A DNA stretch of 64,000 nucleotides. Source: an uncultured Candidatus Saccharibacteria bacterium (lineage in GTDB: Bacteria > Patescibacteriota > Dojkabacteria > CAZCSM01). The stretch is taken from NCBI GenBank assembly GCA_964501355.1, contig CAZCSM010000008.1, positions 761 to 64,760 of the forward strand, given 5' to 3'. Below, piece after piece: positions 42,001-48,000 of the stretch (position 1 is the stretch's first letter; the number at the start of each line of letters is the position of its first letter). A program made the position numbers.

Positions 42001-45000
42001 TGCAAATTAAAAGGAAGCAATTTAAAATACTGATCATTTCAGATGGTTTAGCAACGTTCCTAGCTAAACTTACTGGATTTGATGGGAAGAAAGAAGGCAA
42101 AAGAGCAATGGGTTTTGCAATATTTCCGTGTTTTATCATACTTAGAAACTTAACACACCCGATGACTGAACAATGGATAAACCATGAAAGCATTCATGTC
42201 AGACAGTTTATTGAATCATTAGGTTTATTCTGGTTTTACTCTAAAGCTGAGTATTTCTACTTTCGAGTATTTAAAAAGTATTCCCACTTAGAGGCTTACC
42301 GAAATGAGTCAATTGAACAAGAAGCTTATCTTAATCAGCACAATTTCAATTACCTTAACCAAAGACCAAGTTTTAACACAATTAGATATATGAAGAACAA
42401 AACCGATTTTTATACCGATAGCGATTATAGAGTAATAATAGGAAATGAAACTAAACAGTAACTGGGAAACAAAAACTTATAAATATTCCGCATTTTCTTT
42501 AATTAATGAGAATGAGTTTGTTTTTGATGGAAATGGATTTGAGATTGATGGTGATGATAAAGTTGTACATCTATTAACTATACACGATTGTAGAAACTGT
42601 ACTGTTAAAAACATCAATTTCATAAACGGTAATACAGAAGCTCTAAAACACATTCAGAGGAAAGAGGTACAATATCGTAACGAGAAATGTAGCATATTCG
42701 AAATAATTGATGGTGGAGCCGTAGTTATCACAGGAAGATCCTCTGTGAAGTTTGAAAACTGTAGATTCTTGAGTAATAAATCAATTATGTGCGGAGGTGC
42801 TGTTTCAAATCAATCAGATGGAATAGTTTCCTTTCAAGATTGCTACTTTGAGAATAATATTGCAGGTCATACTGGTTCAGCAATAGACAATCTGACAAGA
42901 AATTCTAAAGTTGTAGTAAATAAATGCGAATTTAATAATAACAATAGCAATCTATGGCATAAATTCGGTTTTCCTCATGGACAAATTTCAATATTTCCAC
43001 AAACTGAGGCAGAAATTAAAAACTCAAGATTTAAACTTGGCTCAATACCGTTTGATTACTACAAAACATCTAAAGTAACTTTTACGTCTAATGTTTATAA
43101 TGATTACTCCGATTGGAACGAGAAAATCCCGACAATAAGAGATACCTCTATCATTAAAGATAATATCAAGATGTTAAGAAAAATGTGGTGGGTTGTAAGT
43201 AAAACATTTGGAAAGGTTTATTATAAAGTAAATCCCTAGTTTCTTTGTTTGATGTTCTGAATTACCGTAATGATCGTTACCCACAATATCTGAAACGGTA
43301 ACAGAAACATACTCATCAAACAGCCATAATTCCTAAACCCCGAATTATAATAAATACTAGCCCCTTTTCCCTTTTTGTAAATCATAACAATCGCCCTAAC
43401 AACTTAAATCTAAAGTTGGAAGCTCAAATAAGAACTTCCACTTATACTCAAACTCCTTAAAACATGAGATAATCGTATCAATAAAGGGAAGGAGTCGTTC
43501 GTACATAGTACGATCGCCCCGACTCTGAGCTTTTTGCTTTTTGAGGAATATCTGCTTTTGACATTTCGTCGCTAGTTTCCCGTAAACGGGATTTACTCAA
43601 CAACAGTTCACCTTCGGTTCACTGTGTTATCGTAATTCCGCACAGGGATTTACTCAACAACAATTCACCTTCGGTTCACTGTGTTATCGTAATCAAGTCT
43701 AGTCACCCCGACTCTGAGCTTTTTTATATACCTCTCATGAAATCAAAGAAGAGATGCTTATGCATCTCTTCTTGAATTTAGTCCCAACTGATTAGGATGG
43801 ATGTTACTTCCCCACCGCATTATGCAGCACCTTCGACAGTTCTTTTAATTCATCAAACTTGTATATTGAAATTGGCATAACCGGTTTTCCCTTACTCGTT
43901 ATTTTATCAACCATATGATAAAATTATTCATATGAAATTTCTAAAAAACGTACCAAAAAATGTAATAAAGTTTTATGTCTGGAAACTCATTTCCGGTTTT
44001 TCTTTTATATATTCACTGCAAGCCATCTATTTATTGACAAAAGGTATTACTGCAGCAGAACTAGCAATCTTTGCAAGTATAACGGCTATTACGACTACAA
44101 TTACTGAAATTCCCACAGGATATATAGCAGACAAATTCTCAAGAAAACTTTCAATCTCTCTAGGTTTTTTCATACAGGGTATAGCTTACATAGTCATTAT
44201 CTTATCAAATAATCTTTTCACTTTAATCCCAATTGGAATCCTTCTGGGTCTGGGGAATTCGTTACTGAGCGGATCTGTAGAATCACTTTTATATGATTTA
44301 TTGAAAAGTTCCAATGACGAGAAGTCATATTTGAAAATCAATTCTAGAGGTTCTGCTATTGAGACAATAACTGGAGTTATTGCAACTTTTCTTGGTCCAA
44401 TCATATATGTCATTAACCATGAATCACCATTTATCTTAACGGGTGTAGTTTTATTAATTCTAAGTTTATTTGTTTATACAATAGATGAAGCAAAATCTGA
44501 TGCAGAGGAAGTTGAAAGAAATCTGTCTGCTCTTGATGGAATTAAGAACATCCTTAAAAACAAAGCTGTGTTAATAATCACACTGGCCGATACAATTTTA
44601 CTTGTAATGGTAAATTTGTTTTATCAAGTGTTAAACTTCCCGAAGTTAGAACGTTTGGGATTTCCCATAGAGTTTCTAGGTTCGTTAGATGTTCTTAATC
44701 TTGTGTTAATGACATTAATGCTGTTAATTGTTTCAAAACTTGTTTTGAAACAATTAAAAAACACCTTTTTTATATATTCGATTGCAACAATAGTTATCTT
44801 CTCTTTATATTACTTTACATCAAATCTGATCGGTGCAATAGTATTTGGTATTTTATTTGATGTTGTTTGGTCAGCAAGAAAGCAAGTAATGCCAACAATC
44901 ACAAACGAATATTTTTCTTCAAAGAATAGAGCGACTTCAATTTCAAGTATGTCTTTTCTCAGTAACCTCGGAGCATCAATACTTGTTCCCGTCACATTAC

Positions 45001-48000
45001 AACTGTTTAATCAAAACAGTTTGTTCGTGTTTTTACCTGTTGTTTTGATCTTTGGATTATTTCTAATTTATCCCAGTGATCAAAAATAGTTCTGATACGA
45101 TTGATTTGTAGGTTAAGAAAAGTTCTATTTCCCCACCGCATTATGCAGCAACTTCGACAGTTCTTTTAATTCATCAAACTTGTATATTGAAATTGGCATA
45201 ACCGGTTTTCCATATTTCTCAAGTTCCTTAACCTTTCGCTTTAACGCTTCCTCATCAACTAAGTCGATTTTTGTAAGCAGAATTATCTCATCTTTCTCAC
45301 CCAAATCGCTCTTCATCTGCTCAAGTTCTTTGCGTATTGATTCATACGCTGCACACACATCGTCATTCTCCACACTGACGAAATGAGCTATTAGCTTTGC
45401 ATTTTCAGCGTGCTGTAAAAACTTTGTTCCAAGACCTTTGCCTTGTGAAGCGCCCTCAATTAAACCCGGCAGATCCATTAAAATCAAATTTCCGCAAACG
45501 CCAAGATTTGGTTGAATAGTTGTAAAAGGGTAGGGAGCAACTTCAACATTTGAATTAGTTAGCGCATTTAACATGCTCGATTTTCCTGCATTTGGAAAAC
45601 CTATAAAGACAACATCAGCAGAAAGTCTGAGCTCAAGATTCACGCTTAATGTTGTGCTTCTTCCTCCTGGAGTACACTTCTTCAAGGTTTTCACCTGTCC
45701 AGCTCGAAATACGTAATTTCCACGACCGCCAAATCCACCGGAAATTAGAAGTTTGCGTTGACCTTCCTTGTCAATTCGAAGAATTTCCTCTTCATCAAGA
45801 GAGTAAACAACAGTTGTTAAAGGAACTTTGACTATCAAATCCTCTCCACTCTTGCCCTGGACCTGATTATGGCCACCAGAAGCACCATCCTCTGCTTCAA
45901 GAATATCTGCTTTAACAAACTTATTTAGATCGTATAGGTTTTTCGTTCCTTCTAAATAAACATCTCCACCTTTTCCACCATTTCCACCGCAAGGCTTGCC
46001 ATTGCCCCAAAATTTCACGGCGCCATTTCCTCCGCGTCCGGATTTGAAATCAACACGAATTCTATCAGTTAACATCTTCGTATTTACATTAAACTAATTA
46101 GTAAGCTCTTTTCCACATGTTATTATACTATATTACAGCGGGAATTACTTAAATAATACGAAGCACCAAAAATCAAACCTCAAATCCCAAACAAATTCCA
46201 ATTACCAAAATCTCAAAAATAAAAACTTTTCCATTTTTGTTATCTGTATTCGGTTGTTATTTTATGGAGTCTGAACCGAATGATGTCGGTTGCTATTTGC
46301 AGAATGATCGTGCTTGGAGGACATTCATTTGGTTCAGCGCTTTTGGTTACTTTTGTTTCCAAAAGTAACGTAACATTTTCGACATAATTAATCATTTGTT
46401 GTTATACTTAATTAATAATTTATCTGAAATGAGAAAAGAATGCCCGCTTTCTACAAAAACTTCACGAAAACACAGAGAATCGTTTTTCTAATCTTTACAA
46501 TTCTACTTTCAATTCCACTAGGCGGAATAGGAGGCGGGTTTATTGGTCTTGTGCTAACAACATTCATTCCAATGGAATGTGGCGGAGGAGGTTGCCATAA
46601 CGCCTTTGAGTGGAATGGAAAGATAGGATATGAAGCGACTGGAAGTTTGGGATTTTGGATAGGGATGATAATTGTTCCAATTATATATGTTATAATTTTA
46701 ATCTTCCTATTAGGGAAGAAATCTAAATAATTAAATTTTATGAATATCACATCTCGCTCATATAAATACCCGGATGACTACGAAGCAATCAACCAAATGA
46801 TTGTGAATAATTATGGAATACAATCGCAAGTTCCACTAAATTGGTGTCAAACAAGATGGGAGTTCATGCATTACCATAGATTAATGCAGGAAAGAAATCT
46901 CTTTGAGAAGCTCAACAAATGCGGGATTTGGGAAGACAATGGGAAAGTCGTTGCAGTAGTGCATTTTGAACACTCCTTCGGGCAGGTATATTTCGACACT
47001 GCAAAAGGTTATGAGTTCCTAAAAAAGGAAATGCTAGAATATGCACAGTCGAATTTAGCGGTTAGAAATGAAGATGGGAAAAACGTTCTTGAAGTATTTA
47101 TTAATGAATTTGATAAAGACTTCGAAAAGATAGCACTAGAGCAAGGATTTGAGAAACTCGAAGAGGGTGGCGAAGAAACCTCCATTATGAAAATAACTCC
47201 GGAAAAATTAGAATATCAAGTTCCTGATGGTTTTGTTATACAAAGTCTTGCGGATGAAAACGATATTTATAAATTTCATCGGGTTCTACATCGAGGATTT
47301 AATCATGAGGGAGAACCGCCGGAAGAAGGAATTGAAGGACGAAAGAGAATGCAATCCGCCCCCAACTATGACAAAGAGCTTAATATTGTTGCGGTTGAAT
47401 TGAAAACGGGGAATTACGTTGCAATAGCCGGTTCTTGGTACGATGCTGTAAATAATTTTGTATGTATCGAGCCAGTTGCGACAGATTATGATTTTCGTAG
47501 AAAAGGTCTTGGAAAAGCTGTGGTGCTTGAAGCAATTAAAAGAAGTTACGAGAAAGGTGCAAATTTAGCATTCGTAGGTTCCGGACAACAATTCTACAGA
47601 TCGATCGGATTTGAATATTTTTTCACCAGACATCTTTGGCGAAAGATTTGGTAAGCAGAAAAAATAACATGGAAACAAAATCCATACCAACAAAACATGA
47701 GATAAAACAAATTCTCGAAGATAGTTTTGATCTTTTCGAAAAGCTCACCAACTTCATCGAAGACAATTATCAAATTGATGGCGTTTATAAATATTCGAAA
47801 AAGAACGGTTGGACAGTTTTTTATAAAAAGAGCGGCAAAGCACTTTGTTATATTAATCTAAAAGAAGGTGGGTTTAATGTGACGATCGTAATTGGAGCAA
47901 GTCTTAATGATGAAGTTAAGAAACTGCCAATTGGCGCAACGACGAAAAAGATGTTCGATGAAGCTTATCAGTATCACGATGGGAAATGGTTGAACTTTGA

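What the first reader, a model, noticed from the sequence alone, without database searches (positions are those of the whole stretch)
43806..45216. MFS transporter gene bracketed by an 88-bp direct duplication of the obg 3' end
Bases 43806-43893 are about 96% identical to 45128-45216, which encodes the last ~29 codons and stop of obg on the minus strand. The 1.2 kb between the copies holds only an MFS transporter gene. This is the signature of a site-specific insertion at the 3' end of obg that regenerated the gene end, as seen with integrases that target gene 3' termini. It could be a decayed second island right next to the ICE attR, or a small insertion cassette.
Basis: seen in the sequence. 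Interest (0 to 1): 0.65.

Follow-up and report, generated by a model that had tools for sequence, protein, structure and literature searches.

The report
Duplicated obg gene end flanking transporter
In this Dojkabacteria (CPR) genome, a transporter gene sits between two near-identical copies of the last 28 codons of the essential GTPase gene obg; this is the scar of an insertion that had to rebuild the gene's end, more likely made by ordinary recombination with a related strain's DNA than by a dedicated integrase.

Summary
An 87-nt direct repeat (43804-43890 and 45125-45211, three differences) covers obg codons 289-316 plus the stop codon. It brackets 1,234 nt holding one MFS transporter gene. 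The far copy (A) keeps its own stop codon and a strong terminator hairpin. The near copy (B) completes the working obg and has no terminator. The two closest relatives found (Obg about 90% identical) have neither the MFS gene nor the duplication. The integrase part is not supported. No recombinase or remnant lies in or next to the insert. The neighbouring ICE's serine recombinase uses unrelated tRNA-Pro sites. The 33 nt just after copy B are an in-frame relic of a gene that is obg's neighbour in one relative. obg is also a recombination mosaic between these lineages. My best reading is homology-anchored recombination with DNA from a closely related strain, at about 0.4. An integrase-made, trans-mobilised cassette remains a serious rival at about 0.25. 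One edge of the mosaic tract coincides with the repeat's inner edge, which stays unexplained. The finding is ordinary in kind, new as an instance, and of modest interest.

The parts
43804..43890 (-). Copy A: orphan copy of obg codons 289-316 plus stop codon TAA. Most likely the displaced original 3' end of obg.
   Evidence: It carries GTG (V) and TAA like relatives L004 and L007, with one derived synonymous change (AAG).
45125..45211 (-). Copy B: the same 87 nt, serving as the working 3' end of obg (stop codon TAG).
   Evidence: It has two derived changes relative to L004 and L007 (V to L, TAA to TAG).
45125..46075 (-). obg (Obg/CgtA GTPase, 316 aa, the short CPR form).
   Evidence: The best named homologues are from Candidatus Dojkabacteria.
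45213..45425 (-). obg nt 651-863: a tract about 95% identical to relative L007, in a gene that is otherwise about 80% identical. It is a recombination mosaic tract whose 3' edge abuts the repeat.
   Evidence: 10 mismatches in 197 nt against 146 in 754 (Fisher p = 1.5e-7); max chi-square reached by 0 of 200 permutations.
43932..45089 (+). MFS transporter gene (385 aa), convergent with obg. The C-terminus is intact and typical of the family.
   Evidence: MFS_1, E = 6.6e-26; alignment with 9 homologues; only weak Tet(40)/TetA(P)-like matches. GC3 is 0.26, like the ICE genes.
43891..43931 (+). 41-nt spacer between copy A and the MFS start codon. The junction 43890/43891 is the abrupt, non-homologous join. 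It contains TGATAAAAT, which resembles an extended -10 element, 8 nt before the ATG.
   Evidence: The promoter reading is from sequence only; the consensus scan found no full promoter here.
45079..45111 (+). In-frame relic of the last 10 codons plus stop of a 152-aa gene that neighbours obg in L007. It overlaps the last 11 nt of the MFS gene. 45112-45124 is the remaining spacer before the obg stop codon.
   Evidence: BLAST carries the obg alignment through to 45079; local score 26 against shuffles of 17.2 +/- 2.4, with 3 of 300 reaching it. L007 protein tail IKNQFDAIELE* against window IKNSSDTIDL*.
43727..43803 (-). Flank after copy A's stop codon. It has a 12-bp stem-loop (43740-43779) followed by a U-rich run, forming an intrinsic terminator in the obg direction and also usable from the tRNA side.
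   Evidence: -24.4 kcal/mol, z = -3.6, 0 of 200 shuffles. The equivalent stretch after copy B has z = -0.8.
43694..43726 (+). Displaced 3' end of tRNA-Pro (19 nt, identical to 3992-4010) plus its cognate trailer.
   Evidence: The leader and this trailer form a 23-bp extended acceptor stem when joined to the tRNA (z = -7.1).
43588..43693 (+). Two tandem 57-nt units: the right end of a second tRNA-Pro-targeting element. The same end abuts the same 19-mer in L007.
   Evidence: 51 nt at 96% identity to L007 1609-1659.
43517..43587 (+). Second copy of CCCCGAC plus the tRNA-Pro trailer, followed by a 52-nt stretch whose last 20 nt match L007 at the same offset from the trailer. This is the right junction of the ICE proper.
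   Evidence: score 35 against 13.0 +/- 1.9, 0 of 1000 shuffles.
3936..4012 (+). tRNA-Pro(TGG), the left attachment site of the ICE.
3997..5568 (-). Large serine recombinase of the ICE (Resolvase + Recombinase + Zn_ribbon_recom; weak best matches to CcrB and XisF).

Best explanation
The structure is a Campbell-type insertion scar at the 3' end of the essential gene obg. It was most likely made by recombination with chromosomal DNA from a closely related strain, not by an integrase.

Before the event, obg ended at what is now copy A, was followed by its own terminator (43740-43779), and lay tail-to-tail with the tRNA-Pro trailer. The incoming DNA carried, in order, the MFS gene, the relic tail of a former neighbour gene, and an obg 3' end. 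On the obg side it paired by homology. On the other side it was joined without homology at 43890/43891, inside the resident obg at codon 288/289. This could have happened by a single crossover of a circularised fragment, or by homology-facilitated illegitimate recombination of a linear one.

Because obg is essential, only products that carry a complete gene end survive. The incoming end (copy B) now finishes the gene, and the old end (copy A) is left as an 87-nt orphan with its terminator, 1.3 kb away.

Shown: the repeat and its exact limits; the orphan's stop codon and terminator; the absence of both the insert and the duplication in relatives; the relic; homologous exchange in obg.

Inferred: which copy is resident, where the incoming DNA came from, and which enzyme acted. 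I put about 0.6 on the topology (copy A is the displaced native end). The 0.4 confidence applies to this RecA-type version of it.
For: The repeat runs exactly from codon 289 through the stop codon and all similarity ends there. This fits two versions of one gene end with different downstream DNA. Copy A is followed by a strong terminator and copy B is not. Relatives L004 and L007 (Obg about 90% identical) carry no MFS gene and no second obg fragment. The copies differ at 3 of 87 positions, against about 17% between the window and L007, so the event is recent or the partner was very close. The DNA after copy B is a codon-level relic of L007's chromosomal neighbour of obg, so the incoming obg end came with ordinary chromosomal context. 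MFS homologues at 54-70% identity sit in unrelated chromosomal contexts without flanking repeats. obg itself carries a significant recombinant tract shared with L007, which is direct evidence that homologous exchange between these lineages happens in this gene. No recombinase or remnant lies between or beside the copies, there are no terminal inverted repeats, and the ICE attachment sequences are unrelated to the repeat.
Against: Neither parental arrangement has been seen intact. No sequence shows obg followed directly by the terminator flank, and none shows the MFS gene next to obg without copy A. Only three close comparators exist, all under 2 kb, and four scans of public collections found nothing more. 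87 nt is short for RecA-driven single crossover. The junction 43890/43891 shows no microhomology that I can verify. The surrounding region is full of true integrase scars (tRNA-Cys and tRNA-Pro end duplications), which raises the prior for an integrase here too. The 3' edge of the L007-like tract in obg (between nt 843 and 864) coincides with the inner edge of the repeat (nt 865), which hints at a preferred break point rather than a random one. The left side of the locus (43517-43726) can also be read so that copy A is the incoming piece.
Confidence: 0.4

Rival explanations
1. Integrase-mediated site-specific insertion. In this reading a non-autonomous cassette, or the last remnant of a larger island, has an attachment site that mimics the last 87 nt of obg. 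It was integrated in trans by a recombinase encoded elsewhere in the genome. This would be analogous to CIMEs at the fda gene or to recombinase-less pseudo-SCC cassettes at rlmH.
For: The anatomy is the classical one: the gene end is regenerated exactly to the stop codon, and the native end with its terminator is displaced. Integrase scars are frequent nearby: a 12-nt tRNA-Cys 3'-end repeat around a 45-nt insert, 19-38-nt tRNA-Pro repeats, and a 20-nt tRNA-Cys repeat in L004. The recombinant tract in L007's obg ends where the repeat begins. An 8-bp palindrome, AACCGGTT, found nowhere else in the 64 kb, lies 4 nt inside the inner edge of both copies. The MFS gene's composition resembles the ICE genes. 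A single internal deletion would explain why the MFS gene is fused to the tail of another gene.
Against: There is no integrase or remnant in or beside the insert. The only recombinase in 64 kb has unrelated attachment sites. L007 carries the supposed element end (the 152-aa gene next to obg) without any distal obg copy. No second genome shows obg as a target, and a literature search found no report of obg as an attachment site. The near-perfect repeats leave little time for an island to decay to one gene.
Confidence: 0.25
2. Copy A is the incoming piece. In this reading the resident arrangement was tRNA-Pro trailer, 52-nt stretch, MFS, relic, obg, colinear with L007. A roughly 300-nt block (43588-43890) then landed upstream of the MFS gene, or a 1.5-kb fragment that also carried the MFS gene arrived. 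The block holds the right end of a second tRNA-Pro element, the displaced tRNA end, the trailer, the terminator and 87 nt of obg. It would be flanking DNA picked up by aberrant excision of that element in another strain, as in specialised transduction.
For: With 43588-43890 removed, the window is colinear with L007 on both sides: the 52-nt stretch after the trailer matches at the same offset and the relic lies next to obg. The block is a contiguous attR-type junction, 96% identical to L007's over 51 nt. This reading needs the fewest novel junctions (three).
Against: It needs non-homologous joins at both ends of the block and gives no reason why a fragment carrying an obg end should land 1.3 kb from obg. 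The tRNA-Pro-repeat-bounded stretch 43536-43693 is more simply an in-place remnant of an integrated element. Copy A with its terminator looks like a working gene end in its native position next to the tRNA-Pro trailer, and the longer T-run of that trailer copy pairs slightly better with the tRNA leader.
Confidence: 0.17
3. Purely local rearrangement in one genome: a tandem duplication or replication template switch followed by deletion, with no foreign DNA involved.
For: The two copies are nearly identical. Nearby sequences also show small tandem duplications, such as the 57-nt units at 43588-43701.
Against: Only the 87 nt are duplicated, and each copy has a different, functional-looking downstream flank that starts exactly at the stop codon. 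A tandem duplication would copy the MFS gene as well and would then need a second deletion ending precisely at a stop codon. Relatives lack the MFS gene at this locus.
Confidence: 0.08
4. Assembly chimera: two co-existing strain versions of the region downstream of obg were strung in series by the metagenome assembler.
For: The contig comes from a metagenome-assembled genome (P0001 is held only on one NCBI contig of 65,085 nt). The locus does look like two alternative versions joined in series. The three differences between the copies could be strain SNPs.
Against: The two junctions that a chimera would have to invent (43587/43588 and 43890/43891) share no k-mer-length sequence with the alternative paths. 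The longest perfect stretch of the repeat is 60 nt, which is shorter than the largest k-mers of common assemblers. The rest of the contig shows no comparable repeats. Coverage and read pairs could not be examined.
Confidence: 0.07

Closest known systems
Campbell-type duplication-insertion and homology-facilitated illegitimate recombination (own knowledge: single-crossover integration of circular DNA; de Vries and Wackernagel 2002; Prudhomme et al. 2002)
   Same: The inserted DNA is flanked by direct copies of the stretch shared by the incoming and resident DNA. There is one homologous side and one abrupt non-homologous joint. The insert is chromosomal DNA of a relative, and no mobile-element genes are needed.
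   Different: The parental molecules have not been observed. The homology is short (87 nt). The joint lies inside an essential gene, so only products with a regenerated gene end could survive.
Integrative elements that target the 3' end of a protein-coding gene and carry a replacement end (own knowledge: phage 21 and e14 at icd; ICESt1/ICESt3 and their CIMEs at fda; SCCmec and pseudo-SCC at rlmH/orfX)
   Same: The gene end is duplicated, the working copy is kept intact to the stop codon, the original end is displaced, and a cassette without its own recombinase lies next to an element that has a Ccr/XisF-like serine recombinase.
   Different: No integrase is present. The neighbouring recombinase uses unrelated tRNA-Pro sites. 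The repeat is 87 nt, not the 15-30 nt of the fda and rlmH systems. The DNA next to the regenerated end is a neighbour-gene relic shared with a relative rather than element-specific DNA. obg is not a known target.
tRNA-targeting genomic islands and ICEs with 3'-end direct repeats
   Same: This is exactly what lies next door. The ICE at 4011-43516 and a second element's remnant are bounded by repeats of the tRNA-Pro 3' end. Small scars of the same kind occur at tRNA-Cys.
   Different: The obg repeat involves a protein-coding gene, a much longer repeat and no associated recombinase.

Membership tests
Integrase-made integrative element at a gene 3' end (icd / fda / rlmH type) | Direct repeats that contain the 3' end of the target gene, with the working copy intact to the stop codon | tested here: met
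   An 87-nt repeat covers codons 289-316 plus the stop codon, and both copies keep a stop codon.
Integrase-made integrative element at a gene 3' end (icd / fda / rlmH type) | A tyrosine or serine recombinase gene (or its remnant) inside the element | tested here: not met
   Only the MFS gene lies between the copies. No ORF longer than 49 aa lies in 43240-43931, and none of the five short ORFs (36-49 aa) scanned matches Pfam.
Integrase-made integrative element at a gene 3' end (icd / fda / rlmH type) | DNA next to the regenerated gene end belongs to the element and not to the host chromosome | tested here: not met
   45079-45111 is an in-frame relic of the gene that neighbours obg in L007. The caveat is that L007's gene could itself belong to a related element.
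Integrase-made integrative element at a gene 3' end (icd / fda / rlmH type) | The same site is empty or occupied by other cargo in related genomes | tested here: inconclusive
   L004 and L007 lack the duplication and have different DNA after obg, but neither is the predicted empty site. Collection scans gave no further genomes.
Integrase-made integrative element at a gene 3' end (icd / fda / rlmH type) | Precise excision to a circle and a restored site | not testable with these tools
   This needs reads or experiments.
Non-autonomous cassette mobilised by the neighbouring ICE (CIME / pseudo-SCC type) | Flanking repeats are attachment sites of the resident element's recombinase | tested here: not met
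   The ICE ends are tRNA-Pro sequences. Local alignments of these against both obg copies score no better than shuffles.
Homologous / homology-facilitated illegitimate recombination scar | The duplicated stretch equals the homology shared by the partners, and the other junction is abrupt | tested here: met
   Similarity ends sharply at 43890/43891 and at the stop codon.
Homologous / homology-facilitated illegitimate recombination scar | Evidence that homologous exchange with relatives occurs at this locus | tested here: met
   A significant mosaic tract in obg is shared with L007.
Homologous / homology-facilitated illegitimate recombination scar | Both parental arrangements exist separately in the population | tested here: inconclusive
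   An arrangement with a gene convergent on obg and the same spacer relic is seen in L007. An obg-terminator-tRNA-Pro arrangement has not been seen anywhere.
Transposon or insertion sequence with target-site duplication | A transposase, terminal inverted repeats and a short target duplication | tested here: not met
   There is no transposase and no inverted repeats at the insert ends. 87 nt is far beyond known target-site duplications (own knowledge).

The most novel reading that the evidence does not exclude
obg nt 864/865 is a recurrent, enzyme-defined break or crossover point in these CPR bacteria. In this reading a site-specific recombinase or nuclease encoded elsewhere acts next to the palindrome AACCGGTT. 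In the window this put a recombinase-less cargo cassette with a replacement gene end into the essential gene. In L007 it left a one-sided gene-conversion tract that ends at the same nucleotide. If true, obg would be a new attachment site, and this would be a first example of trans-mobilised single-gene cassettes in Patescibacteria.
Probability: 0.2. Interest if true: 0.6.

Novelty: new member of a known kind. Interest (0 to 1): 0.33.

Why it matters
The finding shows how gene content turns over next to an essential gene in a reduced CPR genome. The few hundred bases between tRNA-Pro and obg have taken in a 39.5-kb conjugative element, a second element now reduced to about 160 nt, and a transporter gene. 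Three relatives with about 80-84% identical obg genes have three different arrangements there. The duplication is a datable scar (3 differences in 87 nt) of one such event, and the mosaic obg gene shows that these lineages exchange DNA by homologous recombination. If the coincident breakpoints reflect an enzyme, obg would be a new integration target. If not, this is a textbook recombination scar.

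Tried and rejected
1. Exact look-ups of the window's Obg and MFS proteins in the gene-position index returned nothing.

2. Four collection scans found nothing: Obg peptide patterns in genome contigs, a degenerate obg-3' pattern in metagenome contigs and genome contigs (the pattern was verified on the loci and the window), and tRNA-Pro end plus trailer in metagenome contigs.

3. The single viral-contig hit to the 19-mer (L008) lies inside a helicase gene of a GC-rich phage and is a chance match.

4. L007's 152-aa protein has no homologue other than itself, so no longer contig of that arrangement could be reached.

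5. The MFS gene is not a copy of the ICE's MFS gene (32% identity over 85 aa).

6. I looked for a longer, decayed obg pseudogene around copy A and found none. tblastn extends only 7 non-significant residues beyond the repeat.

7. An apparent match between the terminator flank and L005 lies upstream of obg in L005 and is positional noise.

8. An apparent similarity between the start of that flank and L007's trailer-adjacent sequence in the MAFFT alignment did not survive a shuffle test, so I dropped it.

9. Rfam finds nothing but the three tRNAs in the window and only sub-threshold noise in 43200-45300.

10. I tried to derive the whole 43517-45211 mosaic from a single site-specific or Campbell event. 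I tested integration at the tRNA-Pro core, at the obg repeat, and tandem arrays. None gives the observed order in one step, so the full history remains unresolved.

Full report
**Organism and neighbourhood**

The window is low-GC DNA (about 31-41%). Its Obg protein is the short 316-aa form, and its best named relatives are from Candidatus Dojkabacteria, a CPR/Patescibacteria lineage.

A tRNA-Cys, tRNA-Leu, tRNA-Pro operon lies at 3603-4012. An integrative conjugative element follows directly. It carries:
- a large serine recombinase (3997-5568, with weak best matches to CcrB and XisF);
- an HTH repressor and an IrrE-like protein;
- a T4SS pilin, VirB6, VirB4 and a coupling protein;
- a Replic_Relax protein and a sortase;
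- cargo: an ABC-F protein, a second MFS transporter, a beta-lactamase-fold protein and a type III restriction-modification system.

**The observation**

The repeat is real. An 86-nt match at 98% identity lies at 43805-43890 and 45126-45211, and nothing like it occurs in shuffled sequence.

Read on the minus strand, the repeat is exactly obg codons G289-K316 plus the stop codon, 87 nt in all. There are three differences:

| Site | Copy A | Copy B |
|---|---|---|
| L/V codon | GTG (V) | TTG (L) |
| K codon (synonymous) | AAG | AAA |
| Stop codon | TAA | TAG |

Similarity ends abruptly at both edges, and there is no further obg fragment in the window.

Copy B completes an intact obg. Between the copies lies one 385-aa MFS gene on the plus strand, convergent with obg. 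It sits 41 nt from copy A and 35 nt from copy B. Its C-terminus is typical of the family.

**What flanks each copy**

Copy A's stop codon is followed, 26 nt later, by a 12-bp hairpin and a U-rich run (-24.4 kcal/mol, z = -3.6). The stretch after copy B has no such structure (z = -0.8).

Beyond the hairpin lie 19 nt identical to the 3' end of tRNA-Pro, followed by a trailer. Joined to the tRNA, that trailer pairs with the tRNA's leader in a 23-bp extended stem. Copy A therefore sits where a gene end would sit if obg and the tRNA operon were tail to tail and shared a terminator.

After copy B, positions 45079-45111 read ATC AAA AAT AGT TCT GAT ACG ATT GAT TTG TAG. This aligns codon for codon with the last 10 codons and stop of a 152-aa gene that lies convergent to obg in relative L007. 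It overlaps the last 11 nt of the MFS gene. The MFS gene therefore replaced the body of an older neighbour gene, and the DNA that touches the working obg end is old chromosomal context.

**Relatives**

Only three close comparators exist, all on contigs shorter than 2 kb.

| Locus | Source | Obg identity | What follows obg |
|---|---|---|---|
| L004 | Logan | 90% aa | The promoter of the tRNA-Cys/Leu operon, directly after the stop codon and on the same strand |
| L007 | JGI | Same 90% cluster | 16 nt, then the convergent 152-aa gene, then a 52-nt stretch, the tRNA-Pro trailer, the 19-mer and the end of an integrated element |
| L005 | Logan | 72% aa | Only 123 nt of sequence available |

In L004, the segment after obg corresponds to window 3431-3504, so the tRNA operon is inverted relative to obg in the window. 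In L007, the element end is 96% identical to window 43675-43725. L005 adds little.

Neither L004 nor L007 has the MFS gene or a second obg fragment. MFS homologues at 54-70% identity lie in unrelated chromosomal contexts without flanking repeats. Four scans of public collections found no further relatives.

**Age**

The copies differ at 3 of 87 positions, whereas window and L007 obg differ by about 17%. The duplication is therefore far younger than the split from these relatives, or the two versions come from very close strains. Using L004 and L007 as outgroups, copy A has one derived change and copy B has two.

**The left side of the locus**

Between the ICE body and copy A the window reads, in order:
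- CCCCGAC plus trailer (43517-43535);
- a 52-nt stretch whose end matches L007 at the same offset from the trailer;
- two tandem 57-nt units that end in the sequence abutting the 19-mer in L007 (43588-43693);
- the 19-mer plus a second trailer copy (43694-43726).

I read this as follows. The ICE is integrated at the CCCCGAC core by its serine recombinase. Next to it is a remnant of about 160 nt of a second tRNA-Pro-targeting element, bounded by tRNA-end and trailer repeats.

An alternative reading takes 43588-43890 as one imported block, because removing it leaves the window colinear with L007. I could not derive the whole order from a single event under any model.

**Mechanism**

The topology is that of a single-crossover (Campbell-type) insertion into the obg end. 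Because obg is essential, only products with a complete gene end survive, which explains a repeat that runs exactly to the stop codon.

Several results argue against an integrase:
- No recombinase or remnant lies in or beside the insert.
- There are no terminal inverted repeats.
- The ICE's attachment sequences are unrelated to the repeat.
- The DNA next to the regenerated end is a neighbour-gene relic.
- obg is not a reported target.

There is also direct evidence for ordinary homologous exchange. In obg nt 651-863 the window matches L007 at about 95%, against about 80% elsewhere (10 mismatches in 197 nt against 146 in 754, p = 1.5e-7; 43 of 45 informative sites; 0 of 200 permutations). Outside the tract, L004 and L007 are sisters.

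I therefore favour recombination with DNA of a closely related strain, homologous in obg and illegitimate at 43890/43891, at about 0.4. I put about 0.6 on the shared topology in which copy A is the displaced native end.

**What keeps the integrase reading alive (about 0.25)**

- The anatomy is the classical one for gene-3'-end integration.
- True integrase scars are frequent nearby: at tRNA-Cys, at tRNA-Pro, and in L004.
- The 3' edge of the L007-like tract (between nt 843 and 864) coincides with the inner edge of the repeat (nt 865).
- An 8-bp palindrome, AACCGGTT, present nowhere else in the window, lies 4 nt inside that edge in both copies.

With several tract edges in the gene, I estimate the chance of such a coincidence at roughly 0.1-0.2. 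It is suggestive only.

**Other rivals**

- Copy A arrived as a passenger on a fragment of the second tRNA-Pro element: 0.17.
- A purely local duplication: 0.08.
- An assembly chimera of two strain versions: 0.07. This could not be tested without reads, and the junctions share no long k-mers.

**Verdict**

The integrase mechanism is not supported, though it is not excluded. In kind this is a known type of recombination scar. As an instance (obg, Dojkabacteria) it is new. Interest is modest, and would rise if the nt 864/865 breakpoint proves recurrent.

Noticed in passing
window 3997-43535: A roughly 39.5-kb element with a Ccr/XisF-like large serine recombinase, T4SS pilin, VirB6, VirB4, a coupling protein, a Replic_Relax protein and a sortase. 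It is bounded by tRNA-Pro 3'-end sequences (19-mer at 3992-4010 and 43694-43712; CCCCGAC core at 43517). Most Patescibacteria T4SS clusters are reported to lack a relaxase (PMC12102498), so a recombinase-bounded, relaxase-carrying one is among the rarer, plausibly conjugative cases.
   Followed up: partly
window 25144-28825 (minus strand): The ICE cargo resembles a resistance cluster. It has an ABC-F protein that scores 370 bits against the 380-bit cut-off of the ribosomal-protection ABC-F family, followed by an MFS transporter (weak TetA(P)/Tet(40)-like matches) and a beta-lactamase-fold protein.
   Followed up: no
window 45213-45425 (obg nt 651-863): obg is a recombination mosaic. This tract is about 95% identical to L007, against about 80% for the rest of the gene, and its 3' edge abuts the 87-nt repeat. 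The window is also 95% identical to L004 over obg nt 541-600.
   Followed up: yes
window 43879-43886 and 45200-45207: The 8-bp palindrome AACCGGTT occurs only at these two places in the 64 kb, 4 nt inside the inner edge of each repeat copy. L004 and L007 lack it.
   Followed up: partly
window 3510-3521, 3671-3682 and 3728-3739; L004 1362-1381 and 1501-1520: There are small scars at tRNA-Cys. Its first 12 nt are repeated 93 nt upstream. A 12-nt repeat of its 3' end brackets a 45-nt insert. In L004, a 20-nt repeat of the same end brackets about 119 nt. These look like decayed integration events.
   Followed up: partly
window 3431-3504 vs L004 1085-1158: The tRNA operon promoter region follows obg directly in L004. 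In the window it lies 41 kb away, on the opposite strand relative to obg. The tRNA operon (with the ICE) is therefore inverted relative to obg between these lineages.
   Followed up: partly
window 3920-3942 with 43704-43726: The tRNA-Pro leader and its displaced trailer are complementary. They extend the acceptor stem to 23 bp, followed by a T-run. The pre-ICE tRNA-Pro transcript would have ended in a terminator-like stem built around the tRNA.
   Followed up: yes
window 43588-43701: Two tandem 57-nt units (49 nt at 98% identity) sit at the end of the second tRNA-Pro element. Their function is unknown, and neither Rfam nor any other match outside L007 identifies them.
   Followed up: partly
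window 43804-43914 (minus strand): Copy A lies in a 36-codon ORF (MVDKITSK followed by the last 28 residues of Obg). Its ATG is 17 nt from the MFS start codon on the other strand. It is probably meaningless.
   Followed up: no
window 46303-46369 / 61030-61096; 58320-58463 / 62422-62566; 48975-49032 / 59285-59342; 46161-46217 vs L005 1891-1947: Several families of short intergenic repeats at 75-94% identity are present. Some carry hairpins, and one is shared with L005 at a different position relative to obg. They resemble REP- or MITE-like elements.
   Followed up: no
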